A stretch of DNA of 64,000 bases from Malacoraja senta (taxonomy: Eukaryota): positions 7,876,001-7,940,000 of the forward strand of contig CM075993.1 in assembly GCA_038087875.1 (NCBI GenBank). The letters run 5' to 3'. This document shows, one piece after another, positions 1 through 27,133 of the stretch; the stretch's first letter is position 1; every line of letters begins with the position of its first letter. The notes under the pieces are model-generated. The model ran no database searches. It saw nothing but the letters and a program-made list of their open reading frames with translations, and was not told the origin of the DNA. Both the position numbers and the translations under genes were made by a program.

Positions 1-180
1 TTCTCCGAGATCTTCGGTTTCCTCCCACACTCCAAAGACGTACAGAGTTGTAGGTTGATTGGCTTTGAGTAAATATATATTGTCCCTAGTGTGTGTAGGA
101 TAGCGTTAATACGTGGGGATCGCCGGTTGCCGCGGACTTAGTGGGCCGAAGGGCCTGTTTCCGCGCCAACTAAACTAATT
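1..180 (+). mobile_element. HE1-type V-SINE, cut by the window edge
   Basis: V-domain ggtttcctcccacactccaaagacg plus CR1-derived tail gtgggccgaagggcctgtttcc. Confidence 0.85.
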
Positions 181-3738: not shown

Positions 3739-3848
3739 GCCTTGGTGCCCACGCCTGTGTCTTCACACCTGCCTCGATCCCACTGGAGCCTCCATTGAAT
3801 GCTGGAGTGAGCTGTGGTGTAACGCCTGTTGTCTGCTTTGTTTTGCAG

Positions 3849-3913
3849 TGTGCTCGGTCACTGTTCTTGGGGAGAGCGACGTGATGCAGGAATTCCTGGC
3901 GGACTCCAGTGAG
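3849..3913 (+). CDS. SNX27: SNX27-like coding exon (end of PX domain): (V)CSVTVLGESDVMQEFLADSSE
   Basis: Acceptor ttttgcag|, donor |gtaagc, 65 nt. Peptide matches recalled SNX27 [22 protein letters not shown]. Upstream PDZ/PX exons lie outside the window. Confidence 0.9.
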
Positions 3914-3934
3914 GTAAGCCCGCCAAGAGGGTGT

Positions 3935-4230
3935 TTAGTTTAGAGATGCAGCGCGGAAACACACCCTTTGGCCCACCGAGTCCGCGCCGACCATCGATCC
4001 CCGCGCACTAACACTATCCTACACACACTCGGGACAATTTACAATTTTACCAAGTCAATGAGCCGGCAAACCTGTGCATCTTTGGAGTGTGGGAGGAAAC
4101 CGGAGCAACCGGAGAAAACCCACGCAGGTCACGGGGAGAACATACAAACACCGTACAGACAGCACCCATCGTTAGGATTGAACCTGGTTCTCTGGCACTG
4201 TAAGGAAGTAACTATCGCTGCGCCACTGTG
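3935..4230 (-). mobile_element. HE1-type tRNA-derived V-SINE (further minus copies at about 1040-1290, 2650-2880, 12840-13155, 18535-18822, 34385-34615, 37445-37730)
   Basis: tRNA-like head with A/B boxes, V-domain, CR1-like tail and (aaact)n end. Confidence 0.85.
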
Positions 4231-4979
4231 CTGCTCGGTGAAGCAGAGGCCAGCTTTATCCCGGGTTCAGTAATCAGTAGTTACTGTGGGAACAGTCATT
4301 CAGCGTCATGAGCCTGTCTGCACTTCAGATCATGGCAACCCACCCCTCTGATACCTTCAACTCTCAGCCTAAGGAAGGTTGCATCTTATTGTGGACTTTC
4401 CCACGAGCAGTGACTTCTTTAACCTTGTAATCTTGTGATCTTTTTAAGCAGCTCAGTTAGATAAGATTCAGGATGTTTGTAGTTCTCGGTTAATTTAAAA
4501 TCAAAATGTGCCAGTTCCTGTTCCCCGGCATAAGTATGAGGTGAAGTGATTTTTTCTAACTGTAAAATTGTAACCAAAAGTCAATGTGATTAATGTGCCC
4601 TGTGTTTCTGTTGGGGAAGAGTGAATGGAGCTTCATTGCCACTTGTATGCAGAGTTGGCACGGAGTGCAGCGGCATCTGATGTAGAGTGAGGGGGTGGTG
4701 AACAGTAAAGCATTCTCCGCTGTGCCGTGACTGCTGTGAAACGTGACCCTTATTCATAAGACCAGAGAATGACGCAGCAGAGAAAGAGGTTGTTCAGGCC
4801 TTTGTAGCCATGTCGAGTTCTTTGGTAAAAAGACATCTTAGTTCCCCTGTTTTTTATCGCCCCCACCCCCACCCCCCAACTACAAACTCTCAAATATTTA
4901 TCTAATAGTCAGGGGGGGAAGGGATAAGAGAGATGTAGAAGGCATATTGACTTCGTAGTGACAGCGTACGTTCACGAGA

Positions 4980-5392
4980 TTGATCCTTGGGATGGCGGGA
5001 CTGTCATATGAGGAAAGATTGAAAAGATATAAAAGGACTGGACAAGCTAGATGCAGGAAAAATGTTCCCAATGTGGGGCGAGTCCAGAACCAGGGGCCAC
5101 AGTCCTTAGAATAAAGGAGAGGTCATTTAAGACTGAGGTGAGAAAAAACGTTTTCACCCAGAGAGTTGTGAATTTGTGGAATTCCCTGCCACAGAGGGCA
5201 GTGGAGGCCAAGTCACTGGATGGATTTAAGAGAGAGTTAGATAGAGCTCTAGGGGCTAGTGGAGTCAAGGGATATGGGGAGAAGGCAGGCACGGGTTATT
5301 GATAGGGGAAGATCAGCCATGATCACAATGAATGGCGGTGCTGGCTCAAAGGGCCAAATGGCCTCCTCCTGCACCTATTTTCTATGTTTCTA
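4980..5392 (+). mobile_element. CR1 LINE 3' fragment (another at about 5713-6035)
   Basis: FTQRVVNLWNSLP...GYGEKAGTGY; ttctatg tail. Confidence 0.88.
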
Positions 5393-6594
5393 TATAGGAC
5401 ACATGAATGAAAGATATGCATTTGTCCTATACGTTCTAAATCTCTTGTTTCTCTTTCCCCTGACTCTCATTCTAAAGAACGTCACATATTCCTTTTCTCC
5501 AGAGAAACTCAGCTGTCTGACACGCTGAGTGACTCCACCTTTTTGTGTCTATCTTTCAGTTAAACCAGCATCTGCAGTTCCGTCCTACAAATATTTACCT
5601 AATGCCATTTTGAAAGTTAGTGTCTATCTGCTTTTACAATCCATTCAGGCCACATGTCTGAATCTGTGAGCATTCTTCTCACCTTCAATTCTTCAAGACA
5701 TTTGTGTTAAATCAGGAAACATGTTCCCGATGTTGGGGGTGTCTAGAACCAGGGGCCACGGTTTAAGAATAAGGAGTAAGCCATTTAGAACGGAGACGAG
5801 GAAACACTTTTTTTCACAGAGAGTGGTGAGTCTGTGGAGTTCTCTGCCTCAGAGGGCGGAGGAGGCAGGTTCACTGGATGCTTTCAAGAGAGAGCTAGAT
5901 AGGGCTCTTAAAAATAGCGGAGTCAGGGGAGAAGGCAGGAACGGGGTACTGATTGGGGATGATCAGCCATGATCACATTGAATGGCGGTGCTGGCTCGAA
6001 GGGCCAATGGCCTACTCCTGCACCTATTGTCTATTGTACTCTTTGCTTGCCTTTCTGCCAGTGGAAATACATTATCCTTAATTACCAACTCTTTTATGAC
6101 TCTGAACATCGCCCCTCAATCTTCCTGTAATTTTCTATACAATGTGGAGAACAGTCTCGGTTTCCCTCGACTTTTCAAGTCATTGTTCCTCCATCTGCTT
6201 CATTTCTCAAGGGTTTGGCTTCCTTCCCAAACAGAGATGGTGTGCACAAAAGGCCACAATATTCCAACTGGGATGTTAGTAATGTCTAACAAGTAAGCAA
6301 GTCGGGATCGCAAGACAGGGATCCAAAAAAACAGGGGATGGGTTTAATTGACAAAGCAGAGATTGAGATTCGGTGAACATAGTATCCTGACGGTGTCTGA
6401 ATGTCACCATGAATATGGGCCAGTTGTACTTCACTCGTACTTACTTTTCATTCATAGTTGAAAGTAATCAACATGGCCCTCATAGGTAGACATAAATGCT
6501 GGAGAAACTCAGCGGGTGCGGCAGCATCTATGGAGCGAAGGAATAGGTGACGATTCGGGTCAAGACCCTTCTTCAGACTGATGTCATGCTCTTT

Positions 6595-7345
6595 TAGTTT
6601 AGGTTAGAGTTACAGCGTGGAGACGCGCCCCCCTCTGCACACCAAGTCTGTGCCGACCAGCGATCACCCATTCGCTAGTTCTACCCTGCACACTAGGGAC
6701 AATTTACAGAAACCAATTATCCTGCAAACCTGCACATCTTTGGAATGTCGATGGAAACAAGAGCACCCGGAGAAAACCCACATGGTCATAGAGAGAACGT
6801 ACAAACTACATTCAATACCGGTAGTCAGGATCGAGCCCTGGTCTCTGGCACTGTAAAGGGCCTGTCCCACTTGGCCGTCATTAGCGCCTCATTTACGCGT
6901 CATATGTAAAATAGGTCGATGCGCGACATCGCGCGCAAATCACGTGTCAGCACAGCCGTCTGGTGCGTGTGACATCATTAGAATACCCTGCGTCGCGCGG
7001 CAGGACGTTGACGCACGGTGACGTAACCATGCGCCACCACGCGATACACGTGAGACGTCGGGATGCCAGAGCACAACGCCAATGCGTCAGCGTGTGTGCC
7101 CAATGCGTCAGCGTGCATACGTGATGCGTCACGCAGGTGGCGCGCGAGGATTTTGTTCCTGTACTAAATCCTGGAGCGCCGCGTGATACCGCGTGCCACT
7201 GCATACGATTCCACGCCTCACCATCTGCAACGCATGCGCACCTCACGCGTCACGACGCGTCAACCTAATTTACATATGACGTGTAAATGACGGCCAAGTG
7301 GGACAGGCCCTTAAGGCAGCAACTCTATTGCTGAGCCACTGTGTC
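6595..7345 (-). mobile_element. V-SINE interrupted by a Harbinger-type MITE
   Basis: SINE head ggcactgtaa|ggcagcaactc is split at TAA. Confidence 0.85.
6857..7311. mobile_element. PIF/Harbinger-type MITE
   Basis: TIR agggcctgtcccacttggccgtcatt; TAA TSD at 6854-6856 and 7312-7314; CpG-rich interior. Confidence 0.88.
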
Positions 7346-7929
7346 ACCTCTTATCTTTCGTTTGCTCTAATTGGATTACATTGCTGAATTGCTTGGACAT
7401 GCCCAACATTTGGTGATCAATTTAGATGTTCCGGTTATAACAAAATGTAGGATGTTTAAGTATATATAGAACTTAAAAAAAAAAAAATGATGGCCGCAGG
7501 GAGAGCCTACAAACTCCGTAGAGACAGCACCCGTAGTCAGCCTGGAATATTTTTGGGAGATTTGTATTTGTTACTATTTGCACAACCTCCAGCGTTCCAA
7601 AACAGATAATACTTGTGAAGCATATTATTGGAATAATCTGATGATCAGTTTTGGCGTAATCCTTTCCCCAGAATAGTAAAGTACAAGCCTAGAGGCATAG
7701 CTTTAAGGTGAGGGGGACAAAGTTCAAAAGGAGATGTGCAGGACAAGTTTTTTTTACTCTGGATCCCGCTGCCTGGGGTTGTTGTGGAGGCAGATACAGC
7801 AGTGGCATTTACGAAGGTTTTAGAGAAGCACATGGATTGTCAGAGAATGGAGGGAGATGGCACAGATTAATTTCTCACCGCATCCTATTGAGGACGGACA
7901 TTGTGGGCCGAAGGGCCTGCTCCTCTGCA

Positions 7930-8157
7930 TCGGGGGGGGGGGGGGGGAGAGAGTGCAGTGGAGAGATACGTTTTTTTTGCCTTCCATCACAGCGCTGTGA
8001 TGGATGTATGTGTAAATTGTGTTGTGTCTTGAGTCTTCTTCGTTGTGTAATGTATGGCTGCAGAAACGACATTTCGTTTGGACCTCAACGGGGTCCAAAT
8101 GACAAATTTGTCCAAAAGACAAATAAAAATGGTATTGTATTGTATAATTGTATTGTA
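7930..8157 (+). mobile_element. 3' end of a non-LTR element with stem-loop and (TTGTA)n tail (a similar-type minus-strand end at about 14977-15190)
   Basis: ttggacctcaacggggtccaa hairpin, aataaa, ttgta repeats. Confidence 0.55.
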
Positions 8158-9619
8158 CCATTCTGTGTTCCAGACAGCCCTTGTGCTTTGTAGCTCTGCC
8201 CATCCGAGGGGGACAGCCAGAGCCTCTAGTTTATTATCTCACCCCAAAGATGAGCCCAGAACCCTAGCTGGAACCAAAGTACTTCTCAGAGAGCCTCATA
8301 AATTAGTCCGCCACTGATATACTTGTCATATTTCTGGTTGAATAATCCACAAGTTGTTGTCACTGGCCCTGGAGGGAAGGAGTGTCCACTGCCTCTCACA
8401 CTGGATATCTTTATAATTGCCCCATCTCCAGCCAGCATTTATTCTGCTTCATGGCTCTCATCACATTAATCGGTTTTGACTTAAGTTGGTCGGCACGAAC
8501 TGAATCTCATGTATTGTGGGAAACGAGATGCTGGGGGCTATAGAGGTTGAATTCTGCTGAATGTGTGATCTTGGGATCTTTTTGGTTCATTAACTTTCTG
8601 CTTCGGGTCTCACTGATTAGAGATTGGAAATCCCTTCTTGAGTACTTGGTGATAGGAACGGAGAAAGACGAGAATCCGATTTTGAATTTCCTACAATCCT
8701 TTGTTCCCGTGCGATCTCTACAGGCAGTAAGTTTGGAGAGGCAAGCTGGGTTGTTTCAACTATGTATTGTCAGCAGTATTTACACCTGGCTCTGTATTCC
8801 CCCTGGATTACTGCTCGAGTCAGAGGGATCTCCAACTGGCCAGGGCCGTCAGACTGTAGTGGCTATAATCCAGTCTAGGCCCTGGGTGCAAACTGCAGCA
8901 GGCTCTGTCTACTATCGAATCCTTGAACGTAAAGTAACGACCAAAAACTGCATTTGTCAACCACAGTGTGGGGATTGTATGTGGACAGTTTTACTCTGGC
9001 TGGATAACTGATCCAAATCTCCACAGGCCCATTCTTTGGAAAGTGAGCCGGCATGTCACACACATGACCAGCCACCTTGGACCTCTTACCCTAAACAAAC
9101 CGTGTCAGCATAACATATAAAAATTTCACTTGATAAACCGAAAAAAATATGAGTCGTATGTGCAGGACAAAACAATATGCCTGCAATGCTTTCAGAATTA
9201 GAAAGAGATGTATTCCACAATTTCCCCCCTCATTTTTGGTCACACACGTGACAGACTGGGCCTGCAGCCCATATATGAAGGCGTCCATCAAGTTGTCCAT
9301 CATTTCTGCACTCACCGATCTACATTGACTCTTGGACTACGAGTCTTCCAGTTATAAAATATTGAAATTCTCTGCTGAAAGCCCTCCACCCTTTGCTGCC
9401 CACCATAACAATGCCCCCCCCCCCCCCCTGGCCCAATATGTGATGATACCAAGTTTTATGATTGCTCCCGGGATGTGTTCACCGATGTTTTACTGTGCCC
9501 TACAAGTCTTGTGAATACGAGTCGTTCACTAACCGATACGTGGGCCAGTTTGGTCAGAGCTTCGCATCGGCAGGGTGGGAAAGCCTTAGGCGGTCCAATC
9601 AGTGAGATGAGGAGCTTAA

Positions 9620-9928
9620 TGGGCCTGTCCCCACTGTACGAGTTTACCCAAGAGCTCTCCCGAGTTAAAAAAAAAATCAAACTCATGGTAAGCACGTAGA
9701 ATGTACGTTGCGGGTACGTCGGAGCTCGGGACGTCTCTTAGCGGCTCGTAACGCTAACGGCAGGTACTCTGGAAACGCGGTAAGCTCGTGAAGATTTTTT
9801 CAACATGTTGAAAAATGTCCACGAGAGCCCCGAGTACCCACGAGCGGATATTACCGTAATTCTCCTAGTTCGAATCAGGGGAAAGTCGGGAGAACTCTTG
9901 AATTAGCTCGTACAGTGGGACAGCCCCA
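9620..9928. mobile_element. PIF/Harbinger-type MITE
   Basis: Imperfect TIR tgggcctgtccc(c)actgtacgag; TAA TSD. Confidence 0.85.
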
Positions 9929-10066
9929 TAAACCAGGTGAAGAAAGGAGAGCAAACGTGAGCGAGGGCCCATGGCAGTGAAGAGGAGAAAGGGATTGGCC
10001 CGGGATGGAGTGGGACAACAGCGGGGAAGGTGAGTGGGTCGCAGGGTCAAGTCTCGTTGAGTTTAT

Positions 10067-10255
10067 CGTGTAGGAAGGAACTGCAGGTTCTGGTTTAAAC
10101 CAACGATAGACACCAAAATGCTGGAGTAACGCAGCGGGACAGGCAACATCTCTAGAGAGAAGGAATGGCTGACGTTTCTTCAGTCTGAAGAAGGGTCTCG
10201 ACCCGAAACGTCACCCACTCCTTCTCTCCAGAGATGCTGCCTGTGTGTATCTTCC
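10067..10255. mobile_element. PLE fold-back terminus (similar at about 1644-1799, 11622-11838, 19127-19582, 20062-20256, 39355-39757, 49705-50015, 50378-50720, 58989-59200)
   Basis: Inverted arms gctggagtaactcagcggg.caggcagcatctctggaga and reverse complement; single tail aaaccagcatctgcagttccttcctacac. Confidence 0.78.
10185..10212 (+). ncRNA. Minimal type I hammerhead ribozyme motif in a PLE pLTR (representative copy)
   Basis: CTGAAGA, extra A, stem II GGGT-ctcg-ACCC, GAAA, CGTC (palindromic ACGT, GUC cleavage triplet). Confidence 0.65.
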
Positions 10256-10744
10256 AGTTTATTGTCATGTGCATAGGTACGGTGAGGTGCAGGTACAATG
10301 CAAATCACAGCATCACAGGCACGGGGACTTGGAGCACACACACACAGCACAATTGCTGCCTCACAGGTACAGAGACCCGGGTTTGTTCCTGACTACGGGT
10401 GCTGTCTATACGCAGTTTGTACATTCTCCCTGTGACCATGTGGGTTTTCTCCGGGTGCTCTGGTTTCCTCCCACACTCCAAAGACGTACAGATTTGTAGG
10501 TAATTGGCTTTGGTAAGTTGTAAAATTGTCCCTAAAGTATGTAGGTTAGTGTATGGGGTGATCGCTGGTTGGCGCGGGGCTCAGGCCGAAGCGCCTGGTT
10601 TTTTGCTGTATCTGTAAAAACAAACAAAACCAGAAATTATACGTTAATGAATAATAAGAAAAATACTGCAGTGCAAAAACACAATTATAAAACAAGTCTG
10701 TGTTGGTGTACCCTTGCTGAAGCAGAATTACGGCTGTGCAGTTT

Positions 10745-11430
10745 CATAAATTCATAACTGATAGGTGCAGAATTAGACCATTCGGCCCCTCAAGTCTACG
10801 CCGCCATTCAATCATGGCTGATCCATCTTTCCCTCTTAACACCATTCTCCTGCCTTCGCCCCATAACCCCGGACACTCGTCCTAATCAAGTATCTATCTC
10901 TGCCGTAAAAATATCCATTGACGGCCTCCACAGATTTCTGTGGAAATGAATTCCGCAGATTCACCAGCCTCTGACTACATGGAAACAAAGAAAATAGGTG
11001 CAGCCCTTCGAGCCAGCACCGCCATTCTCAGAGGGTGGTGGAGGCCGGTTCTCTGGATACTTTCAAGAGAGAGCCAGATAGGGCTCTTAAAGATAGCGGA
11101 GTCAGGGGATATGGGGAGAAGGCAGGACGGGGTACTGATTGGGGATGATCAACCATGATCACATTGAATGGCGGTGCTGGCTCGAAGGGCCGAATGGCCT
11201 ACTCCTGCACCTATTGTCTATTATTGTCTGTTGTCCCAATATGATCATAGCTGATCATCCAAAATCAGTACACCGTTCCTGCTTTTTCCCCCCATATCCC
11301 TTGATTCCTTTAGCCCTAAGAGCTAAATCTCACTGAAGAAATTGCTCCTCATCTCCTTCCTAAACAAGCGCCCTTTAATTCTGAGGTGATGACCTCTGGT
11401 CCTAGACTCTCCACATCTAATCTATCCAGG
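10745..11430. mobile_element. Three nested CR1 3' fragments
   Basis: Minus fragment interrupted at about 10978 by a second minus fragment, itself interrupted at about 11027-11236 by a plus fragment. Confidence 0.75.
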
Positions 11431-13567
11431 TTGTTTCAAGACCTGATGGATGTAGGAAAGTAGCTGTTCTTGAACCTGGTGGTGTGGGACTTCAGGCTTG
11501 TGTACCTCCTGCCAGATGGTGGCAGTGAGAAGCCCAGATGGTGGGGATCCTTGATGATAGATGAAGCCGCCTTAAGACATCATCTCAGTTCGATGGTGGA
11601 GTTAGGGGGGGCTGAGTAACCTGTAGGAAGGAACTGCAGATGCTGGTTTAAACCGAAGATAGACCCAAAAAGCTGGAGTAACTCAGTGGGACAGACAGCG
11701 TCTCTGGAGAAAAGGAATAGGTGACGTTTCGGGTTGAGACCCTTCTTCAGAAAGCTCGACCCGAAACGTCACCCATTCCTTCTATCTAGAGATGCTGCCT
11801 GTCCCGCTGAGCTACTCCGACATTTTGTGTCTGTCTTTGGGCCGAGCAAACACTCTCTACAGCCCCTCGCGTTCCTGTGCTTTGGAATTGCTTTGCCAAA
11901 CCACGATGCAGTCGGAATACTCTCTGCAGTGCACCTGTAGAGGTTTGTTTGTATAAAATCTGTGAGGTGGAAAGTATGGGACAAAGGGTTGAGATGTGAT
12001 TGAGAAATAGGGAGATAAAATTGTATTTGTGTAGTATTGATAGTCAAAGCACATGGCGTATTAGGTCAAGTTGTGTACGTGTGGGGTTGAATCCTTAACA
12101 AACTGCACTTTAACCACAGTTGTGGATTGTTTAGAAACTCGAGCAGGCATGTAGTACAACATATTGATCGCTGAGACAATGGTATTGATTGATGTAATAC
12201 ATTCTTGTGTGAAGCACAGGGAACAGCCCATTCTGGCTGTTGCTAGATCCATCCTGTTCAGCTGGATCCTCCTCCCATCTGCTCCCCCATCTCGCCACAA
12301 TGACCTGTGGAGCCAAGTCCATGGATATTTTTCAGGTGGGGGAGATCGACAGATTCTTAATTAGTAAGGCTGTCAGGGGTTATGGGGAGAAGGCAGGAGA
12401 ATGGGGTTGAGAGGGAAGGATAGATTAGGCATGATTGAATGACGGAGTGGAATTGACGGGCCGAATGGCCTAATTCTGCTCCTAGAACCTCCCCTTGCAT
12501 GTACTTCATTACTCCTTCAATGTATCAGTGAACGTGACCAAGGGATATGGTGAGAAAACAGGAACAACACTGGTTTAGGATGATCTACTGTCATGGTATT
12601 GAATGATTTTCTCACTCATAGTAAAGGGGCTGCTGTATTGTTCCAGCTTCTACCCTGCACTGGCTCTGCAGCCAGGTATCGCAGCCCGAGAGCTGGGAAG
12701 TGTTAAGCAGTTCAGGCTGCTTGACTAATTCGTTCCTTCTGCTGCTCGAGGGATTGAGCAAGGTGGGTGGGAACACCCCTCGAACAAGGGCAGGGGTATC
12801 ACCTAGGGGGCCGCAAGGTGGCAATGTTGTAATGTTTGCTTTGGTTTAGAGATACAGCATGGAAACAGGCCCTTCGACCCACTGAGTCCACGCCGACCAT
12901 CGATCACCTAGTCACACTAGTTATATGTTACTTTAGTCTCATTGATTTCCTTACACACCAGTGGAAATTTACAGAGACAATTAGCCTACAAACCCGCACG
13001 TCTTTGGGATGCGGGAGGAAACCGAAGCACCCGGAGGAAACCCACACGGTCACAGGAGAACGTGCAAACTCCGCACAGACAGTATCCGAGGTCAGGATTT
13101 TAACCTGGGTCACTGGCACAGAGAGGCAGTGGGTCTACCAGCTGCAACACTGTCGCTCTTAAGCACAATCCTTTGCCACGAGCAGGGGAATCGAGAACCG
13201 AAGGACATAGGTTTAAGGTGAGGGGGGGAAATGATTAAATTGGAACCTGAGGGGTAACTTTTTCACACAAAGGGTGGTGGGTGTATGGAACAAGCTGCTG
13301 AAGGAGGTAGTTGAGGCAGGTACTTTGGAACATTTCAGAAACATTTAGACACGTACATGGATGGGATAAGAGTGATATGGGACAAACGCAGGCAGGTGGG
13401 ACTAGTGTAGATGGGGCATGTTGGTCGGCGTGGGCAAGTTGAGCCGAAGGGCCAGATTCCACACTGTATCGCTCTGACTTCCTGGCATCGGGAATCTCTG
13501 ATTGCTGTTTGACTTTTTTACAGATAACCGTTATAAAAGCTGAATGTTTCTTGTTGGGCTCTTTCAG

Positions 13568-13672
13568 AGTACGAACGGGCTGTCGGATGTGGACCTGAGG
13601 ATAGCACTGCCCGACAGGAACATAATCACCGTCACCGTGAAAAAAAACAGCACTGCAGACGAAGTGTACAGG
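13568..13672 (+). CDS. SNX27: SNX27-like exon (FERM F1/RA): [35 protein letters not shown]
   Basis: tttcag| ... |gtgagt, 105 nt, phase 0/0; lies within ORF 13544..13912. Confidence 0.93.
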
Positions 13673-14706
13673 GTGAGTTCGGTGTTCTCGCCACTGGCAA
13701 TGATCACAAAGAGGCGTCCGCCGGTAACACATCTCCTGGCATCACACTGCCGGTGGATAAACCCACCTCAGCAAGTCACCAACCTAGTTTACTCTGCTGT
13801 GCGGATAACTTGCGCATCCTTAAGCATCCTTATGCGGTGTGGCGAATGTAGAAACCTGGAACTGCAGATGCTGGTTTACAACAACAAAAAAAGACACAAG
13901 GTGCTGGAGTAACTCAACAGGTTAGGCAGTATGTCGGGTCCTGATTGAAACGTCACCGGTCCACGTTCTGGAGTTGCTGCCTGACCCTCTGAGTTACTCC
14001 AGCACCCCATGCTTTATTTCCCAGTGTGGAGAAATTGTATGTGGCGACAATGTCGATTAAACTTGTTGGCTCTCAGCCCTGGGTGGAGATGGGCTGATTT
14101 ATTAATCTTCTTTTACTTGAAGACCGAATTGCTTCATAGTTTCCTATATTTGCAATTGAAATGTTGGCACATCGGGTGTCCTCTGTTGTCCGTCTCTACA
14201 GAGACTGACGGACCCAATGGAGCGAGGGGTTTTGTTGCAGTGTGTGCGGCTAGTCTGTGCCAAGGGGATATATAAATGTAGACTGCTTCCATCCTGACCT
14301 GCTCTCCCTGCGTAAACAAAACCTGCCTGAAACAAGGTCATTTAGCACATGCAGAGAGAATGGCTGAGTGAATGTTTCGGGTGGAGCGTTAATGACACGG
14401 ACTTTGTTATTAGTTATGGAATGGGAGAGAAAGGCAGAATTTCTGATCCAAGTGTAAGGGGAGGCCATGAAAGACTGGCCAGTGGGTGAGCATTGTTCCT
14501 TCAAGAGAATGATTCTGTACCTCGCCTGTGACTTTGTGCTGTAGGGACTTTGTGTTGTGGGTGCAAGAGCAAGTCTGGTCCCATCACTGTGCAGGGTGCC
14601 CCAGTGGGACTGAGCCTACTGTGTGTGTGTGTGCGTGGAGAGGGGAGGTCCCTGCAATGTGCCCTGGTGCCTGACCCTTGCTTCATTCTCTCTCCGCTCC
14701 CTGCAG

Positions 14707-14785
14707 GCAGTACAGGAACACCTACGAATGGACAGCATCACGGCCAGCTTTTTCACACTGTTTGAAGTGGTGGACCACTTCTTCG
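14707..14785 (+). CDS. SNX27: SNX27-like exon: AVQEHLRMDSITASFFTLFEVVDHFF(E)
   Basis: ccctgcag| ... |gtaagg, 79 nt; phase joins the next exon (g+ag = E). Confidence 0.9.
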
Positions 14786-15823
14786 GTAAGGGCGACAAGA
14801 TGAATTCTCTAAGTTATTGAGAAATAATGGTGCTCGTGGTGCCGGAAGGTTAATTTACAAACAAAACAAAAAATCCCATCGGTGGAAATATTACAGAAAA
14901 GAGCGACTAGTCTTTCATTTGGATGCCAGAGTTCGCCAGGTGACATCTGAGCCATTTTCCACCGGGCTGAGCTTAATTGAATTGAATTGAATACTTCATT
15001 GTTACATGTGACAAATCACAGTGAAATTCTTTGTTTGCGTACCCAAGGTATGCAAATAGTCGCCCATAAAGGGTGGTTACAAAGTCACAAAGTGTCCCCC
15101 TTTATTCCCCCCCCCCCTCCTCACGACGGCCCCCCCATGCTGGGTCCTCCTTTTATTCCTTCCCCCGGCAGCGGCGTCCTCACTTCCTGTGACAGGATAT
15201 CTTGAATTTATCCCAATCGATCTTTTGAAGAAAAGTCCCTGAGCTGAAACTTTGACTAGTTTCTCTGTCCACAGATGCTGCTGGACTGGCTGAGTTCTTC
15301 CAGCATTATTTCTGGTTTTGTGCCAGATTCCACGATATTTGTCCTCCACTGCGTTGCCTTGTGGTCTCTCACCTGGAAGAAGACGGGGACTTTGGTGTCC
15401 CAGGGTCAGAGCGCACTGCGTAAACATCCAGTGGTTAGCGTAGAACGTGTAGGGTCCAGAGGACCAGACGAAGATGGATGTAATGGCCGCTTTCGTTCTG
15501 CTCATTGAATGGCAATCTGATCTCTTAATGTTTGGCTGTTTGGCTGAATAGCAAATCGCACTTGGAAAACAACCAAATGCTGGAATCTGAAACCAAACTG
15601 CTGGAAGAAGTCGACCAGGCAGCATCTGTCTGAGACCCTTCCTCTGAACTGGGAGAGGGGTGAAGGGATTGCAGATACAATGTGCAGCAGGGGCGGTGGG
15701 GAGAGCGAGGTGTAAGACAACATAAACAGAGATGGAGATTAAAAGACAGTTGAGGTGATCAGGAGCAAGAATGCTGGTCATCGGGAGAAAAAAGGCAAGA
15801 AAGGACTGTAGAAATAAAGAACT

Positions 15824-16133
15824 GCATGGTGGCGCAGCGGTAGAGTTGCTGCCTTGCAGCGCCAGAGACGCGGGATCAACCCCAACTCCGGGTGCTGTCT
15901 GTACGGAGTTTTACGCTCTCCCTGTGACCTGCGCTGGTTTTCTCCGGGTCCTCCAGATTCCTCCCACACTCCAAAGACGTACAGGTTTGTCGGTTAATTG
16001 GCTTGGGTTTGTACACTCGGTATAAGTGTAAATTGCCCCCTAGTGTGTGCAGGATAGTGTTAATGTGCAGGGATCGCTGGGCGGTGCGGACTCGGTGGGC
16101 CGACAGGCCTGTATCTCTAACCTAAACTAAACT
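15824..16133 (+). mobile_element. Full-length HE1-type V-SINE (further plus copies at about 10345-10620, 27330-27615, 31045-31330, 48875-49348, 59638-59935)
   Basis: A-box tggcgcagcgg, B-box-like segment, V-domain, CR1 tail. Confidence 0.87.
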
Positions 16134-16289
16134 ACAGATGCTGGTAAATACAATACAGGACACAAAGTGCTGGAGTAATTCAGCAGGTCAGGCAGCATCC
16201 CCGGATAACATGGATAGGTGAAGGGTCGACCTGAAATGTTGCATATCCGTGTTCTCTTTAACTGCTGCCCAACACAAACTGCTGACTTA

Positions 16290-16595
16290 AAGCCCTGTCC
16301 CACGGTACGAGTTCATTCCAAGAGCTCTCCCGAGTTAAAATCAAATCAAACTCGTGGTAAGCACGGAGAATGAACGTAGCGGGTACGTCGGAGTTCGGGG
16401 ACGTCTCTTAGCGCTAACGGCAGGAACTCGGGAAGACTCGCTAACGGCAGGTAAGCTCGGGAAGACTCGTGAAGATTTTTCAACATGATGAAAAATGTCC
16501 ACGAGTACCGACGAGTGGCCATTACCGTAAATCTCCGAGTTCGAATCAGGACAAACTCGGGAGAGCTCTTGGAATGAACTCGTACCGTGGGACAG
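16290..16595. mobile_element. PIF/Harbinger-type MITE (right terminus clipped)
   Basis: Long TIR ctgtcccacggtacgagttcattccaagagctctcccgagtt; same family as 38670-38988 in opposite orientation. Confidence 0.85.
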
Positions 16596-17041
16596 AAACA
16601 ATAGGAGCCACTTACCTGAAGTTGTAAAATTCAACGTTAACACGGTGGACAGACGATCAGATATTTGTTCCCCTCGCCTACTTTCTGTCTCAATATTTGT
16701 ATCTTTAATGATCTTAATCTTATCTCTTTTTGTTCTTTGGCGGAGGAAGAGTTGGGAGGTGGTTGTGACGTTTCTACTCTGGTTTGTGAGGCGGGTTTGA
16801 TGAAGTGGTCGCCCTCTCCCTGCACGTCACCGTTGTATGTCTCTATTCATGAAATCCAACAGCAGCTCTTAAGATAGAACATCTCCTTGGGTTATTTTAA
16901 GAAAGACGTGGGTGATTTCTGTCTTGACAATGAGTTCATTCATCTCCCGCTGTATCGCCTGAATAATAATTTACATTCATGTTCTCACTGAAGTAATATC
17001 CTTTACAGAACCAGGCTGATTCACAAATTACGTTCCTTTCG

Positions 17042-17806
17042 ACCCTGTCCCACTTGCGCGACCGTTACAGGCGACTGCTGGCACCCGTGATAGGCCGCCG
17101 AAATTTTCAACACGTTGAAAATTCAGCGACGACCAGAAAGACGCTACTAGACGTTAAGAATAAGGAGTAAGCCATTTAGAACGGAGACGAGGAAACACTT
17201 TTTCTCACAGAGAGTGGTGAGTCTGTGGAATTCTCTGCCTCAGGTGGAGGCCGGTTCTCTGGATGCTTTCAAGAGAAAGCTAGATAGGGCTCTTAAGAAT
17301 AGCGGAGTCAGGGGATATGGGGAGAAAGCAGGAACGGGGTACTGATTGGGGATGATCAGCCATGAATGGCGGTGCTGGCTCGAAGGGCCGAATGGCCTAC
17401 TCCTGCACCTATTGTCTATGGCCTGTTTCCGTGCTGTAATGGCCTGTTTCCGTGCTGTAATGGTTATATGGTTATATTGCAGGTAGATGGGACTAGGGGG
17501 AAGTAAGAGGAAAGAAGGGAAGAGAAAAAAAGAAAAGGAAAAAAAAAAAAAATAGTGTTCGGAACGGACTTGAAGGGCCGAGATGGCCTGTTGCCGTGCT
17601 GTTATGGTTATATGGTTATTATATGGTCTATTGACTCTTTGGAGACCTCTCACAACCATAGGAGACCTCTCACGACCATGGTCGTGAGAGGTCTCCTATG
17701 GTCGTGAGAGTTCTCCAAAGAGTCGTAGTGTCTTTCTGGTCGCCGCTGAATTTTCAACGTGTTGCCGGCAGTCGCCTGTAAAGGTCGCGGAAGTGGGACA
17801 GGCCCT
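17042..17806. mobile_element. PIF/Harbinger-type palindromic MITE containing CR1 3' fragments (about 17152-17633)
   Basis: Termini cctgtcccactt ... aagtgggacaggccct; internal arms are reverse complements. Confidence 0.8.
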
Positions 17807-18215
17807 TTATTCCTCTGATCTTGTTCAGGCTTGTTCAAAGTTAATTTCGGATCAAGGGTGGCAGTATCGGGAGAGCTGACCAAAACCAAGTGAGAGACGC
17901 CGGTTTTATGGGTTAACAGGGAAAGACGGAGAGGTAAGGATGAGTTTCACGAGGTTATATTCCCAGAGGCTGGTGATCAGGCAGCTGTCAGTCAGCAGGG
18001 TATTGATGGGCTGAGTGAAACTGGAGATGCATTGGAATTCTCAGAGGGCTTCTCCAGCTGGAGGATGTGACAGATAGTGAAGGATGAGCCCGCAGGGAAT
18101 GAAGCCAAGGAGCACAGGGTCACGTTTGGTCAACCGTGGCACCCGCTCCTCTCCCTGCACTCCGCAGTCGTTATAACCTCAGCGGAATCTTTTTTTAGCT
18201 TGAGATGTCTTGTTA

Positions 18216-18513
18216 AGGGCCTGTCCCACGATGCGAGTTCACCAAGAGCTCTCCCGAGTTTAAAAAAAAAAAAAAAAACTCGTGGTACCTCATCACGAGT
18301 ATTTTTTTACTCCTGGAAATTTTTCACACTGTTGAAAAAACTTCACGAGTTTCCGCGTTTCCCGAGTACCTGCCGTTAGCGTTACGAGCCGCTACGAGAC
18401 ATCGCGAGCTCCGACGTACCCGCTACGTACATTCTATGTACTTACCACGAGTTTTATTTTTTTTTTAACTCGGGAGAGCTCTTGGGTGAACTCGCATCGT
18501 GGGACAGGGCCCT
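18216..18513. mobile_element. PIF/Harbinger-type MITE
   Basis: TIR agggcctgtcccacgatgcgagttcacc; TTA TSD. Confidence 0.87.
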
Positions 18514-18911
18514 TTACACTTTAGCCTTTTAGACTTTAGAGATACAGCGCGGAAACATGCCTTTTGGCCCACCCCATCCGCGCTGACCAGCGATCACCCC
18601 CGTACACTTAACATTATCCTACACACACTAAGGACAATTTACAGTTTTACTGAAGCCAATTAACCTACAAACCTGAACATCTTGGGAATGTGGGTGGAAA
18701 CCGGAGAAAACCCGCGCGGGTCACGGAGAGAACGTACAAACTCGGTACAGACAGCACCCGCAGTTAGGATCGAACCCGGGTCTCCGCCGCTGTAAAGGCA
18801 GCAACTCTACCGCTGCGCCACACTTGTTTTTCCAGCCTTTCTCTGCTTCAGATTTATTTGTACCATGTGAAGCATTGTTTGCACATTAATGCCTGGTTTG
18901 TGCATTTGCAG

Positions 18912-19075
18912 AGAGGAAGCTGGTCCCCAACGAGTTTCCGCACAAACTGTACGTACAGAACTACACGTCGGCAGCAGCCGGCACCTGCCTGGTCATCAGG
19001 AAGTGGCTCTTCACCATGGCTCAGGAGGAGCTCCTGAATGACAACGATCTCGCTGTAACCTACTTCTTCCATCAG
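18912..19075 (+). CDS. SNX27: SNX27-like exon: [54 protein letters not shown]
   Basis: tttgcag| ... |gtactc, 164 nt; diagnostic SNX27 FERM peptide, translated by hand. Confidence 0.95.
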
Positions 19076-20749
19076 GTACTCCCATGGTGGCCGCTCGCTT
19101 AGTTTTATACACGGAGAAATAAGGATCTGCAGATGACACAAAGATACAAAGTGCTGGAGTAACTCAGCGGGTCAGGCAGCATCTCCTCCCCCCCCCACCC
19201 ACATTTTCTCTATTTCCCCATCTCTTCCCTGTGCCCCACCTGCACCCATTTCACCCCTTCAACATATTCTTTCCTCTGGCTTCACAATTCACATCTCGTC
19301 TGTCCCTCTCACACATTTTTCCTTTCATCTTTGGCCTTCGACGATCCATCAAAACCCTCCCATCACTTGTATCTGCCTGTCAAAAAAAACACCTCACGTC
19401 TCTGCCTATCACTCGCCAGGCTTCGTCCCCTCCCTCCTCTCTTCCCGCTTTCTTCACCGTCCACCCCACCAGTCTGAAGGAGGGTCCCGACCCAAAACAC
19501 CACCTATCCATTTCCTCCAGAGATACTGCCTGACCTACTGAGTTCCTCCAGCACTTGTCTTCATCCGCAGTTCCTTGTTTCTCCCACTTGTTATTCCTGT
19601 TGGGACAGTCTACCACCGTATCTGTCACATTTGTCCCCTCGTACTCAGCGACGCACTTTATACCGTAGACTTGAAGAGACTCGTTAGCCCAAATCTGTCG
19701 CCGGTGCCTCTGTGTTAGAGGTCTGTCTGTGTACTCAGGGTGAACATGTGTATATTCTGCATCAATGCCCTGCACGTTGCACGGTAGCGATCTGTTAACT
19801 GGGGCGTGCTGGTCGAAGCAACATCTTATTTATCACTGTAACTCGGTGTCAGCCATAGGAAACACTGACAGCGCACAGGTCAGTCAGCATGTGAGACGGG
19901 GCAAGATTAATGATGCTCTTCAAAGCACTGCACACCCAGCCCTGTCACCATGACCTTTGTGAAGACTGTGCTATCCAAACCTTTTACAACAAGCCCAACC
20001 CAGCTGCCTTTAATCCTGAAGTGTGCGATTAGTAAAAAGCCGTTCAGTTATCAAGTGGTTGCGCAGGAAGGAACAGCAGGTGCTGGTTGAAACGGAAGGT
20101 AGACACAAAATGCTGGCGTAACTCAGCGGTTCAGGCAGCATCTCTGGAGAAAAGGAGTAGGTGACGTTTTGGGTCGAGACCCTGGATGTCACCTATCCCT
20201 TTTCTCCAGAGATGCCGCCTATCCCGCTGAGTTCCTCCTGCTTTCTGTGACTATCTCGAGAGAAGTGGCCGCATGACGTTGATCGCCTTGTAAATGTAAG
20301 AGGTACACTCCAAAAAGAACAGGGAACTCACAGTTGTTGCATTGAGAGGCGGCTGCGAGAAATGAGCTGTGGACTTCATTTGCTGCCTTTGCTGAAGGTG
20401 GTGGCTGGGGTGTGGGTTACTGCTGGATCACCCCTTCATAAGGTCATAAGTTATAGTAGCAGAATTAGGCCATTCAGCCCATCGAGTCAAGTCCACCATT
20501 CAATCATGGCTGTTCTATTTTTCCCTCTCAATCCCATTCCCCTGCCTTCTCTCCATAATCTTTTGACAGCCTTGCTAAACAATAATCTGTCTATCTCCGC
20601 TGTAAAAATATCTATTGGCTTGGCCTCCACAGCCACCTGTGACAGTGAATGCCACAGATTCACCCCCCTCTGCCCAGAGAGATTGCTCCTCGTCTCCTTT
20701 CTAAGGGTACATCCCCTTCACTCACTGGGCTGTGTCCTTCTCCTTCCAG

Positions 20750-20839
20750 GCTGTGGAGGATGTAAAGAAAGGCCGGATCCGAGTTGGCGACAAGTCGTAC
20801 CAGCTTCAGAAACTGTCCGAGCAGCACAAGAAAGTCATG
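20750..20839 (+). CDS. SNX27: SNX27-like exon: AVEDVKKGRIRVGDKSYQLQKLSEQHKKVM
   Basis: ccttccag| ... |gtaaga, 90 nt. Confidence 0.95.
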
Positions 20840-21367
20840 GTAAGACTCGCCAGAACCCTTTGTCAGAAACCGCTCTGGTCTTGCACCCTGCTGCCTGGCA
20901 GCCACGAGTGCAACTTGTTTGTGTGAAGGTGAGGTACTGCAGCTTCCAACCGGGGCAATGCTGCCCAGAGGGCTGGTGGTGAGGGGAGACAAAGGTGGTG
21001 GCATCTGGCCAAGGGGGAGAACGCTCACGGTCGCAGTGTCAGAAACACGGCAGTAACAAGATCCCAGCACGCCCGGTTAAAGGGGAAGGCGGGAAATCGA
21101 CCGAACATCTCCCCGTCACGGGGGCGGTGACGTTTGCACACACTCAGGCCACGACACACACTTCATCTCCGTCCATCTGCACTGCATTCCCCCCCCCCCC
21201 CAGCCTGAAACAGCTAAGAATAAAGAGGGAATAACCAGATTATACGGCTGTGTCAGCAACAGGTCTGGGCTACTATTTCAATATCACAGAGATGTTATCT
21301 GAGAGAAAAGAGCAGGAGATCTGTTGCAGCAGGGGGTGTTGGGGTGGGTGTTAACGTTGCTGGTTAT

Positions 21368-21712
21368 GTTGACACGCTAGAGGCAGGAAACATGTTCCCG
21401 ATGTTGGGGGGAGTCCAGAACCAGGGGCCACAGTTTAAGAATAAGGGGTAAGCCATTTAGAACGTAGACCAGGAAACACTTTTTCTCACAGAGAGTGGTG
21501 AGTCTGTGGAATTCTCTGCCTCAGAGGTGGAGGCAGGTTCTCTGGATGCTTTCAAGAGAGAATTAGATAGGGCTCTTAAAGATAGGGGAGTCAGGGGATA
21601 TGGGGAGAAGGCAGGAACGGGGTACTTATTGGGGATGATCAGCCATGATCACATTGAATGGTGGTGCTGGCTCGAAGGGCCGAATGGCCTACTCCTGCAC
21701 CTATTGTCTATT
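21368..21712 (+). mobile_element. CR1 LINE 3' fragment
   Basis: Same sequence as 1990-2325. Confidence 0.88.
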
Positions 21713-21876
21713 GACTCCAGTAAAGTATTCCGCGGGGACAGGGGAGAGTGTACCAGAGTGCTGGCCCAGCTTGGAGGAGCTTGGTGAAGTCCACTGTGAC
21801 TAACTCTTGGGTGAGGGGGGGGAGTGGTGAAGGAGGGTGGGTTGCTGACTGATGCCCAGTCTTCCCTTTACTGCAG

Positions 21877-22026
21877 TACCTAAACATGATTCGCACGTGT
21901 GAAGGCTACAACCAGATCGTCTTCCCGCACTGTCGCTGCGACTCTCGAAGGAAGGGGCACGTCATGGCCGCCATCAGCATTCAGCACTTTAAACTGCATG
22001 CTTGCACAGAGGATGGTCAGCTGGAG
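21877..22026 (+). CDS. SNX27: SNX27-like exon: [50 protein letters not shown]
   Basis: ctgcag| ... |gtaggt, 150 nt; conserved CDSRRKGH motif. Confidence 0.95.
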
Positions 22027-22132
22027 GTAGGTGCCATCAGCTCCCGTCCACTCAATGCAGCGCCCTGTGCTACAGAGTGAAATCTCCAAAGTGGTCTATG
22101 TCCCTGCGCCGACCCCACTCTCCACACCTCCC

Positions 22133-22327
22133 GCCCTTCCTGTCATGGCTGCCTCTCCCACCCTGACTGCCCTTCCCATCATGGCTGCCTCTCCCACCCT
22201 GCTGGCCATTCCAGTCATGGCAGCCTCTCCCGCCCTCTGGCCCTTCCCATCATGGCTGCCCTGGTGGCCCTTCCCATCATGGTCGTCCCTCCCGCCCTCT
22301 GGCCCTTCACATCATGGCCGCCCTTCC
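22133..22327. repeat. Minisatellite, about 6 imperfect copies of a ~35 bp unit
   Basis: Recurrent gcccttcccatcatggctgcctctcccaccct. Confidence 0.8.
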
Positions 22328-22825
22328 TGACCTGCTGGGCCATCACAATTCTTGCAGTCCAGTCAGGCAATGTCTTCAGATCGTTATCAACCAGAATATG
22401 ATTTGAGTCTTATTTACAATTGTAAACTGTCCAGTGTGGAGCAGACAACATTTGACATTCTAATGCGTACGTGAATTCCCATCTCCTGGTCACACCATCT
22501 CTCCTCTTGAAACTCCCTGTATCTTTTTACTAGACATTGCTTTATCTCATTAATGATTGGATAAGTGGATTATGCTTCAGTTTTGGTGTAGAATTCCATG
22601 TACTACCCACCTTTTGTGCAACGTTTATCCCCGTGTGTTTCCTTGAATTATTATTGCAATCGTGCCTTTTGCTGAATTGTTAACCATGTATTTAACACGA
22701 TTGGCCTTAGATTGACCCCCCTCTATCACCAGTGATCACACTGGTCCCAGCCCTATGTCTCTTACTCTCGTGTCAAACTTACAAGAGAGTTCCAGGCATG
22801 AGCAGACCACACCGGGGGAAGCTTC

Positions 22826-23880: not shown

Positions 23881-23923
23881 TCTTACCGGGGCTTTTGCCT
23901 GTTGCAGCCAAAGTGCTGATGTT

Positions 23924-24086: not shown

Positions 24087-24110
24087 TGCTGATGTTGTGC
24101 GTTTTCTTAG

Positions 24111-24969: not shown

Positions 24970-25007
24970 CCTTTTACGCAGCAGTTCGCTTTCCGTGAAC
25001 ACTATAG

Positions 25008-27133
<2,126 letters not shown>

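What the first reader, a model, noticed from the sequence alone, without database searches (positions are those of the whole stretch)
10185..10212. Dispersed fold-back repeats carry a minimal hammerhead ribozyme core
Seen: the commonest unexplained repeat contains CTGAAGA-A-GGGT(loop)(A/G)CCC-GAAA-CGT(C/T). Intact or near-intact copies occur at 10185 (+), about 11723-11750 (-), 24839 (+), 30401 (+), 45038 (+), 47784 (+) and about 52331-52358 (-). Degenerate copies occur at about 6550, 19474, 34800, 48239, 49885, 50629 and 59424. The stem II loop varies (ctcg, ttcg, cccg, ggtg) while the stem and both catalytic boxes are mostly kept. Established: CUGANGA / GAAA / NUH is the hammerhead core, PLE pLTRs encode minimal type I hammerheads whose tiny palindromic stem III works as a dimer, and an extra nucleotide after A9 is tolerated. 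Inference: this genome is densely seeded with ribozyme-bearing non-autonomous PLE derivatives, several in sense orientation within the pre-mRNAs of the two host genes. The dimer requirement could explain why monomers are tolerated in introns. Stem I looks weak by eye (2-3 bp).
Basis: partly seen in the sequence, partly recalled or inferred. Interest (0 to 1): 0.72.

Follow-up and report, generated by a model that had tools for sequence, protein, structure and literature searches.

The report
Penelope retrotransposon stubs with idle hammerheads
This repeat in a skate genome is the short end piece of a known kind of jumping gene (a Penelope-like element) and carries that group's known minimal self-cutting RNA motif, but most copies are damaged or predicted to be folded shut, so they likely do not cut the host's RNA.

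Summary
The motif is real: 14 matches within 3 mismatches, none in shuffles. It lies at the 5' end of a ~130-nt repeat with 61 arms in the window. The repeat is the pseudo-LTR of a Neptune/Nematis-type Penelope-like element: a GIY-YIG remnant lies upstream on the same strand, 16 of 19 head-to-head pairs have a ~30-nt tail on one arm only, and 5 of 19 have clear 10-16 bp TSDs. The core fits the published minimal PLE hammerhead. Junctions differ between pairs, so these look like one-off short insertion products, not a self-copying non-autonomous family. Only 5 of 16 cores pass, and 2 of those keep the native 2-bp stem I. The inverted arm is predicted to lock the cut site. The boxes are not better kept than the flanks in window copies. 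Arm 5' ends cluster just before the ribozyme, not at the cut, which suggests uncut RNA is copied. The scan noted the same kind of element in other shark or skate windows. New member of a known kind.

The parts
10185..10212 (+). Minimal hammerhead core (C3 to C17), intact, 2-bp stem I; sense in an SNX27-like intron
10068..10178 (-). Long (tailed) inverted pLTR arm of the 10185 insertion; predicted to pair with and bury the cut site
10180..10255 (+). Short pLTR arm with an internal deletion; a 9-nt repeat with 1 mismatch (10060-10068, 10256-10264) may be the TSD, seen by eye and within chance
11622..11840 (.). Head-to-head insertion, long (-) arm with intact core at 11723-11750 but only 1 bp of stem I, short (+) arm; core antisense to SNX27-like
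24659..24987 (.). Head-to-head insertion with two long arms; intact core at 24839-24866 (+), native upstream sequence, 2-bp stem I; sense in an SNX27-like intron
30401..30495 (+). Solo short arm; core with one stem II mismatch; 8-nt possible TSD
34705..35119 (-). Insertion with short inverted arm, endonuclease 3' remnant, 3' UTR and long pLTR arm; core at 34798-34825 has G8 changed to T
34957..35091 (-). C-terminal GIY-YIG endonuclease remnant (one stop, one internal deletion); its first 13 nt also belong to the inverted arm
44746..45163 (+). Solo long copy: last endonuclease codons (weak match, E 0.16), pyrimidine-rich 3' UTR, core at 45038-45065 with C11.1 changed to G; antisense to the mannosidase gene
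47784..47879 (+). Solo short arm of subfamily B, intact core (GUU triplet) with no stem I, 12-nt TSD; followed by a second arm at 47896-48014 that lacks box 1
48957..49142 (.). Head-to-head subfamily B insertion, 14-nt TSD with 1 mismatch; core at 48984-49011 (-) passes with a G.U pair; sense to the mannosidase gene
52325..52455 (.). Head-to-head insertion; core at 52331-52358 (-) has G10.1 changed to A and no stem I; sense to the mannosidase gene
23924..24086 (.). Head-to-head insertion without box 1, 10-nt TSD, short and long arm
36636..36857 (.). Head-to-head insertion without box 1, 15-nt TSD with 1 mismatch
41922..42082 (.). Head-to-head insertion without box 1, 16-nt TSD
42726..42966 (.). 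Head-to-head insertion without box 1, 13-nt TSD with 1 mismatch
6549..6576 (-). Degenerate core (GAAT in place of GAAA)
19474..19501 (+). Degenerate core of an older variant, with about 290 nt of pyrimidine-rich sequence upstream
48239..48266 (+). Degenerate core (GGAA)
49885..49912 (+). Degenerate core (CAGA)
50629..50656 (+). Degenerate core (GTAA)
50926..50953 (+). Degenerate core of an older variant
59424..59451 (+). Degenerate core
3848..31622 (+). Host gene: sorting nexin-27-like, mapped exons from 3848 to 27944, with a possible alternative last exon at 31563-31622
38517..61921 (-). Host gene: GH38 alpha-mannosidase (MAN2C1-like; that name is recalled), mapped exons

Best explanation
The repeat is the pseudo-LTR of an endonuclease-bearing Penelope-like retrotransposon (Neptune/Nematis type) with a minimal hammerhead core at its 5' end, and the copies here are likely one-off short insertion products whose ribozymes are likely inactive in host RNA. 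Shown: shared 3' ends about 90-100 and about 129 nt from C3, head-to-head pairs with a tail on one arm, TSDs, an endonuclease remnant upstream, and 5' ends clustered at the start of the core. Inferred mechanism: the element's RT-endonuclease nicks both target strands; each nick primes cDNA on uncut element RNA at one of two internal start sites about 30 nt apart; the cDNAs stop near the RNA's 5' end or earlier and are joined head to head, at times through microhomology; repair leaves a TSD. Longer copies would come from read-through or tandem transcripts. The hammerhead would act only in the source element's RNA, probably with help from its protein as in the anole element. Inserted copies would then decay neutrally, and in host pre-mRNA they would be idle because of mutation, loss of the stem I 5' strand, or pairing with their own inverted arm.
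For: PLE identity: remnant at 34957-35091 (-) lies upstream of a core on the same strand and matches whale shark protein P0012 (56% over 48 aa, E 5e-8), which has RT, a CxxxxCxxC linker and GIY-YIG; a Zn-finger-like linker marks Neptune and Nematis (PMC8557442 passage). Tail: 3' ends of 53 arms fall at +85..105 (20) or +118..129 (24); 16 of 19 pairs have one long and one short arm, as described for inverted pLTRs. TSD score of 10 or more in 5 of 19 pairs and 1 of 8 solos, against 1 of 400 random pairs. The anole element nicks and extends both strands, starts RT at two sites that bound the tail, uses uncut RNA, and its ribozyme cuts only with protein (PMC11167929). 5' ends: 32 of 53 within -5..+11 of C3 and 0 of 53 at +27..+29; the best-supported loose 5' ends in run X1 lie at 45033, 45035 and 45036. 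At the 35.08-kb junction 13 nt read both as inverted arm and as endonuclease codons RQHL. Idleness: 5 of 16 cores pass, 2 of them with native stem I; opening the core costs 14-28 kcal/mol in 4 of 4 fold-backs modelled and 5-8.5 in 6 single-arm folds; G12 is changed to A in 13% and C11.1 to T in 17% of depth in X1; box and flank mismatch rates are 10.2% and 11.5%, p 0.64; 6 of 15 genic cores are sense, p 0.61.
Against: No full-length element or whole genome was on hand; the link to the ORF rests on one clear and one weak remnant (E 0.16). 12 of 19 pairs have no TSD at all by the script and 2 have only a 7-mer. 3 of 19 pairs are not long-plus-short, and two arms are probably misclassed (39670 short, 19474 long). 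Both arms of all 19 pairs are of one subfamily, and in 4 of the 18 pairs scored the partner is the closest of all arms, which also fits fold-back copying of one cDNA or conversion between arms. Two arms start at +26, and 16233 (-) could start at the cut given 2 nt of microhomology; 123 loose-end rows were not shown. Equilibrium folding ignores co-transcriptional folding and core tertiary contacts. No cleavage was measured. In X1, 4 of 7 testable invariant positions had no change reaching 1%, against 1 of 24 others (post hoc Fisher p 0.005), so the boxes do show some constraint.
Confidence: 0.8

Rival explanations
1. The fold-backs are a non-autonomous, ORF-less family (retrozyme- or SINE-like) that is transcribed and re-mobilised as a unit by the PLE protein.
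For: Very abundant (147,370 contigs laid in X1; not a copy number); ORF-less; TSDs flank whole fold-backs; animal retrozymes are proposed PLE derivatives (bioRxiv 2026.07.22.740005); solo pLTRs can act in trans (PMC3846280 passage). Rare short head-to-tail joints exist.
Against: The 19 pairs have different junction coordinates, although three share a join at the stem II G-run; 5' ends grade into 3' UTR and endonuclease sequence; no tandem array of intact cores in the window (the 47784/47896 tandem lacks a second box 1).
Confidence: 0.12
2. The palindromes come from one cDNA that folds back and copies itself, not from priming on both target strands. This rival concerns the mechanism only; PLE identity is unchanged.
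For: Self-priming was proposed for head-to-head PLE palindromes (PMC3846280 passage); arms of 19 of 19 pairs are of the same subfamily, two pairs are 100% alike over the columns compared; several joins are near-perfect hairpin turns.
Against: The short arm stops at a recurrent place about 30 nt before the long end, which matches a second RT start site; at 35.08 kb the join falls in a 13-nt microhomology between arm and endonuclease sequence.
Confidence: 0.25
3. Sense-oriented intact cores cut host pre-mRNA when two meet as a dimer, so the repeats affect SNX27-like or mannosidase RNA processing.
For: 10185 and 24839 are intact, keep stem I and are sense in one pre-mRNA; minimal hammerheads show low activity as dimers (PMC4209133).
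Against: They are 14.6 kb apart in different introns; both cut sites have unpaired probability 0.00; the dimer has a 4-bp stem III and 2-bp stem I and is 9-15 kcal/mol above other folds; no strand bias; no reads ending at the cut in anole RNA-seq.
Confidence: 0.04
4. The motif is not a hammerhead but a chance look-alike (promoter or splice signals plus a hairpin).
For: No Rfam hit; no covariation beyond shuffles in 16 cores; boxes not better kept than flanks in window copies.
Against: All 11 invariant positions, the extra nucleotide, G10.1-C11.1 and the palindromic 15.2-16.2 pair of the published minimal PLE hammerhead are present, in a pLTR; the 4 differences between subfamilies A and B at +12, +16, +27 and +28 all keep the fold or the NUH rule.
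Confidence: 0.05

Closest known systems
EN+ Penelope-like elements, Neptune/Nematis type, with inverted pLTR, tail and TSD (PMC8557442 and PMC3846280, passages)
   Same: C-terminal GIY-YIG, Zn-finger-like linker in the closest full relative, short 5'-variable insertions, head-to-head inverted copy, ~30-nt tail on one arm, TSDs, hammerhead in the pLTR.
   Different: Here nearly all insertions are 100-330 nt stubs with no ORF; TSDs reach 16 bp, against 8-10 bp in the rotifer passages; no full-length copy seen.
Minimal hammerheads of metazoan PLEs (Cervera and De la Pena 2014, PMC4209133)
   Same: Type I order, zero-loop palindromic stem III, extra nucleotide between 9 and 10.1, G10.1-C11.1, location in pLTR, mostly single dispersed motifs, some in close opposite-strand pairs.
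   Different: Stem II is 4 bp (7-8 bp in Schistosoma, 6 in D. virilis); stem I is 2 bp as in D. virilis, not 4-5 bp; cartilaginous fish are not named in the parts read or in supplement file 2.
PAc, Poseidon element of Anolis carolinensis (PMC11167929)
   Same: Hammerhead about 70-100 nt upstream of two recurrent 3' ends; no sign that cut RNA is the template.
   Different: Different clade; in PAc the ORF starts in stem II, which was not tested here; protein-assisted cleavage is shown for PAc only.
Non-LTR retrozymes (PMC7229834; bioRxiv 2026.07.22.740005)
   Same: Type I hammerhead, no ORF, PLE-related, reported in one chondrichthyan genome.
   Different: Retrozymes are head-to-tail tandem repeats with a ribozyme in each unit; here copies are solo or head to head and no tandem of intact cores occurs in the window.

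Membership tests
EN+ Penelope-like element | C-terminal GIY-YIG endonuclease upstream of the pLTR on the same strand | tested here: met
   Remnant 34957-35091 (-), E 5e-8 to P0012, whose domain scores above the Pfam GIY-YIG cut-off; the remnant alone has no Pfam hit
EN+ Penelope-like element | Telomerase-like RT in the same ORF | tested here: inconclusive
   No RT remnant in the window; present in relative P0012, weak RVT_1 match E 9e-5
EN+ Penelope-like element | Inverted 5'-variable pLTR copy joined head to head | tested here: met
   19 pairs, picked by hand from 53 arms
EN+ Penelope-like element | 30-40 nt tail on one arm only | tested here: met
   16 of 19 pairs; two clusters of 3' ends
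EN+ Penelope-like element | Target-site duplication | tested here: met
   5 of 19 pairs and 1 of 8 solos at score 10 or more; chance 1 of 400
EN+ Penelope-like element | Partial tandem (direct pLTRs around an ORF) | not testable with these tools
   No genome held; no full-length copy in the window
Neptune/Nematis clade | Zn-finger-like linker between RT and endonuclease | tested here: inconclusive
   Seen in relatives P0012 and P0006, not in the window; no RT tree built
Minimal type I PLE hammerhead | CUGANGA, GAAA and NUH in type I order | tested here: met
   5 of 16 cores pass; consensus has all
Minimal type I PLE hammerhead | Extra nucleotide after A9, G10.1-C11.1 pair, palindromic 15.2-16.2 | tested here: met
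   Extra A in 16 of 16, G-C in 12 of 16, C-G in 13 of 16
Minimal type I PLE hammerhead | Helix I closing the core | tested here: inconclusive
   2 bp in 7 of 8 cores with native upstream CAGT
Minimal type I PLE hammerhead | Covariation in the helices | tested here: inconclusive
   No excess over shuffles in 16 related, decayed copies
Minimal type I PLE hammerhead | Self-cleavage after NUH, as a dimer or with protein | not testable with these tools
   Bench assay needed; model disfavours the unaided dimer
Canonical hammerhead (Rfam families) | Match to an Rfam hammerhead model | tested here: not met
   No hit at E 1 in the window or at E 10 in 24805-24900
Non-LTR retrozyme | Head-to-tail tandem units, each with an intact hammerhead | tested here: not met
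   None in the window; only rare short go-back joints in public contigs
Non-LTR retrozyme | Monomer-length linear and circular RNA in cells | not testable with these tools
   Only contigs could be laid
Non-autonomous PLE family | One fixed structure repeated at independent sites | tested here: not met
   Junction coordinates differ among 19 pairs; window only

The most novel reading that the evidence does not exclude
The pile-up of 5' ends 2-3 nt before C3 marks the element's cap site (the TCAGT there resembles a Pol II initiator; motif recalled). The stubs would then be strong-stop-like run-off cDNAs of the RNA's leader rather than failed long copies, stem I is 2 bp because only 3 nt precede the core, and the ribozyme is a protein-triggered self-decapping switch that removes a 31-nt capped leader and takes that RNA out of the pool that is translated or integrated. 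This would give PLE hammerheads a concrete job and make skate genomes a natural map of PLE priming and transcription start sites. A 3' splice site (pyrimidine tract plus CAG) at the same place is the main alternative.
Probability: 0.2. Interest if true: 0.6.

Novelty: new member of a known kind. Interest (0 to 1): 0.25.

Why it matters
As it stands this extends a known pattern (minimal hammerheads in PLE pLTRs, inverted pLTRs, tails) to a skate, where the family is very abundant. It argues against reading such intronic motifs as active host ribozymes. Its use is as data for an open question, how PLEs make head-to-head insertions and what their ribozyme does: thousands of copies with sharp ends give priming sites, junctions and a candidate RNA start that can be tested.

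Tried and rejected
Whole genome: none held, so no genome-wide search or full-length element. Rfam: only miRNA-like and hairpin chance hits. Covariation on 16 cores: none beyond shuffles. Box against flank conservation in window copies: not significant; the figure with all 11 positions (7.5%, p 0.053) was set aside because C3-A6 lie at alignment edges. tblastn for RT or longer PLE ORF remnants: none. TATA box upstream of the candidate start: not conserved among four copies by eye, so not claimed. Spliced-leader origin of the 5' pile-up: loose ends at 45035 and 45036 agree only 0.31-0.32, so there is no shared upstream exon. Expression: no RNA holder listed; runs X19 and X21 are only guessed to be RNA and contigs cannot show ends or strand. 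Positions C3-A6 could not be judged because changes were listed only for 45042-45072. Literature: 'hammerhead ribozyme' with 'cartilaginous fish' gave 1 unrelated paper; 'Penelope' with skate or elasmobranch gave 3 and 8 listings, none on this family by title or abstract start. Earlier notes by sequence and for this genome: nothing.

Full report
Setting. The window is from a skate or close relative: an exon at 18914-19075 is 100% identical over 54 aa to a Leucoraja erinacea sorting nexin-27-like protein. That gene lies on the + strand, exons mapped from 3848 to 27944 with a possible alternative last exon at 31563-31622. A GH38 alpha-mannosidase lies on the - strand, exons mapped from 61921 to 38517. 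No whole genome is held.

Observation. The motif is at 10185-10212 as written. A profile search finds 61 arms of one ~130-nt family. I aligned 53 of them (E 1e-8 or better, plus two short arms added by hand; 8 dropped) to one frame. I scored the 16 arms that I picked as reaching the start of box 1. Five pass all core checks (10185, 11750, 24839, 47784, and 49011 with a G.U at 10.1-11.1). Box 1 is intact in 13 of 16 and GAAA in 9 of 16. Stem I is 2 bp in 7 of the 8 cores that keep the upstream CAGT. Only 10185 and 24839 have both an intact core and that native stem. Rfam finds no hammerhead, as expected for a minimal form (inference).

The motif as a hammerhead. [quoted passage not shown] The window consensus has all of these features. 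Subfamilies A and B differ at 14 of 92 positions, none at the 11 invariant ones (p 0.14), and the changes near the core keep the fold or the NUH rule. There is no covariation beyond shuffles. Among window copies, 7 invariant positions away from alignment edges mismatch at 20 of 197 (10.2%) and flanks at 332 of 2881 (11.5%), p 0.64; without CpG sites 7.1% against 11.0%, p 0.13 (the junction ends of 13 arms were trimmed first). In contigs of run X1, changes were listed only between 45042 and 45072. Of those 31 positions 5 had no change reaching 1%: G8, A9, the extra A, A13 and A14 (post hoc Fisher p 0.005). The baseline is only 1-2%, so this is weak. In the same table G12 to A is 13%, C11.1 to T 17%, C15.2 to T 11% and G16.2 to A 7% of depth, all at CpG sites. 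I read this as constraint in source elements and neutral decay after insertion (inference).

What the repeat is. Upstream of the 34825 core, on the same strand, lies a remnant that finds cartilaginous-fish GIY-YIG proteins and matches whale shark P0012 at 56% over 48 aa, E 5e-8. P0012 has an RT part, a CxxxxCxxC linker and a GIY-YIG domain; such a linker marks the Neptune and Nematis clades (PMC8557442). A second, weak remnant (E 0.16) lies upstream of the 45038 core. The 3' ends of 53 arms cluster at +85..105 (20) and +118..129 (24) from C3. Of 19 head-to-head pairs picked by hand, 16 have one long and one short arm by script; two arms are probably misclassed in opposite directions. Five of 19 pairs and 1 of 8 solos have TSDs of 10-16 bp scoring 10 or more, against 1 of 400 random position pairs; 2 more pairs have a 7-mer, which chance gives in 23 of 400; 12 pairs have none. 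An inverted 5'-truncated pLTR, a one-sided 30-40 nt tail and a TSD are the described PLE insertion layout. Runs from four organisms each gave thousands of contigs on the repeat (147,370; 164,795; 15,819; 2,714), which shows abundance but not copy number.

How it most likely works. In vitro the anole element nicks and extends both target strands, starts reverse transcription at two internal sites that bound the tail, inserts uncut RNA, and cuts its ribozyme only when its protein is present (PMC11167929). Applied here (inference): each nick primes a cDNA at one of two start sites, the cDNAs stop and are joined head to head. At 35.08 kb, 13 nt belong both to the inverted arm and to endonuclease codons RQHL, as annealing of two cDNAs would give. 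The 5' ends fit an uncut template: 32 of 53 lie within -5..+11 of C3 and 0 of 53 at +27..+29, although two start at +26 and one of these could start at the cut. In X1 the three best-supported loose 5' ends are at 45033, 45035 and 45036 (1130, 920 and 910 contigs; 6 of 129 rows shown). The 45033 ends carry a pyrimidine-rich consensus and are probably other subfamilies; those at 45035 and 45036 have unrelated AT-rich flanks. Opposite-strand joints cluster at 45033-45038. Junction coordinates differ among the 19 pairs, so there is no sign in this window of one fold-back unit being re-copied. Fold-back copying of one cDNA stays a live rival: both arms are of one subfamily in 19 of 19 pairs (my assignment) and are closest relatives in 4 of the 18 pairs scored, and self-priming has been proposed (PMC3846280).

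Host genes. Six of 15 genic cores are sense (p 0.61), so there is no sign of selection against the sense strand in this small sample. In the four fold-backs modelled, the cut site has unpaired probability 0.00 and opening the core costs 14-28 kcal/mol; in six folds of single arms it costs 5-8.5. The double-hammerhead fold is 9-15 kcal/mol above the best other dimer fold in three tests. These models leave out tertiary contacts and folding order. The dimer requirement may contribute to tolerance in introns, but mutation, loss of stem I, pairing with the inverted arm and need for the protein suffice (inference).

Most novel reading. The 5' pile-up falls on TCAGT, which resembles a Pol II initiator (recalled motif). 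An Inr-like TCACT was noted in a rotifer pLTR and D. virilis Penelope has an internal TATA-less promoter (PMC2377424). If the RNA starts at that A, only 3 nt precede C3, the stubs are run-off copies of the leader, and cleavage would remove a 31-nt capped piece. A 3' splice site at CAG/T is the alternative, since the D. virilis intron ends at helix I, but the loose ends share no upstream exon. An earlier scan note had already proposed that the joins record the RNA start, and I reuse that reading. Untested; probability 0.2.

Known and new. Minimal hammerheads in fish, amphibian and reptile PLEs, including close opposite-strand pairs, are in print, and a preprint reports retrozymes in one chondrichthyan. 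My searches found no description of this skate family; subscription papers and Repbase were not searchable. Eight earlier scan notes describe the same kind of element in other shark or skate windows.

Papers seen. PMC4209133: parts 1-2 of 4 and a term search of supplement file 2; file 1, with the alignments, was not searched and may list cartilaginous fish. bioRxiv 2026.07.22.740005: parts 1-3 of 5; supplements closed and may list the chondrichthyan families. PMC11167929: parts 1-2 of 4. PMC8557442, PMC3846280, PMC7229834, PMC2377424: passages only. Others: search listings only.

Verdict. Observation confirmed with corrections, interpretation partly supported, new member of a known kind, interest 0.25.

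Noticed in passing
window 24659-24987: Both arms are long and stay mirror-symmetric for about 22 nt beyond the usual family end. This may be element sequence past the tail (a third start site) or a copied flank.
   Followed up: partly
window 35079-35091: 13 nt at the junction read both as inverted pLTR arm and as endonuclease codons RQHL, a likely annealing point of two cDNAs.
   Followed up: partly
window 45033-45072 (contigs of X1, X8): Rare go-back joints of about 32-38 nt in public contigs suggest tiny head-to-tail tandems of the ribozyme core alone; such units could form dimers.
   Followed up: no
window 42005, 54427/54428, 59117/59118: Three insertions, of two subfamilies, share the same hairpin-like join at the stem II G-run.
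   Followed up: no
window 56377-58212 (-), 25237-26172 (-), 33726-34442 (-): LINE RT fragments, one a 611-aa open frame; CR1-like by recall, not tested.
   Followed up: no
window 10761-11330, 5394-5420: LINE 3' ends and a PLE 3' UTR piece also occur as inverted pairs or inversions.
   Followed up: no
window 9620-9930, 16295-16595, 58790-58986: MITE-like elements with terminal inverted repeats beginning GGGCCTGTCCC; family not identified.
   Followed up: no
window 15828-15900, 43610-43682, 18749-18821 and others: About 17 matches to a second short repeat, probably a tRNA-derived SINE (identity recalled, not tested).
   Followed up: no
window 17633-17724: A 46-nt-arm palindrome with no spacer, built of short tandem units.
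   Followed up: no
window 15227-15629, 38024-38171, 60027-60175: Older, more diverged pLTR arms of the same kind, two of the three loci as head-to-head pairs.
   Followed up: no
P0163: An unnamed database protein joins carbonic anhydrase to GH38 domains with a duplicated C-terminal part, probably a gene-prediction artefact.
   Followed up: no
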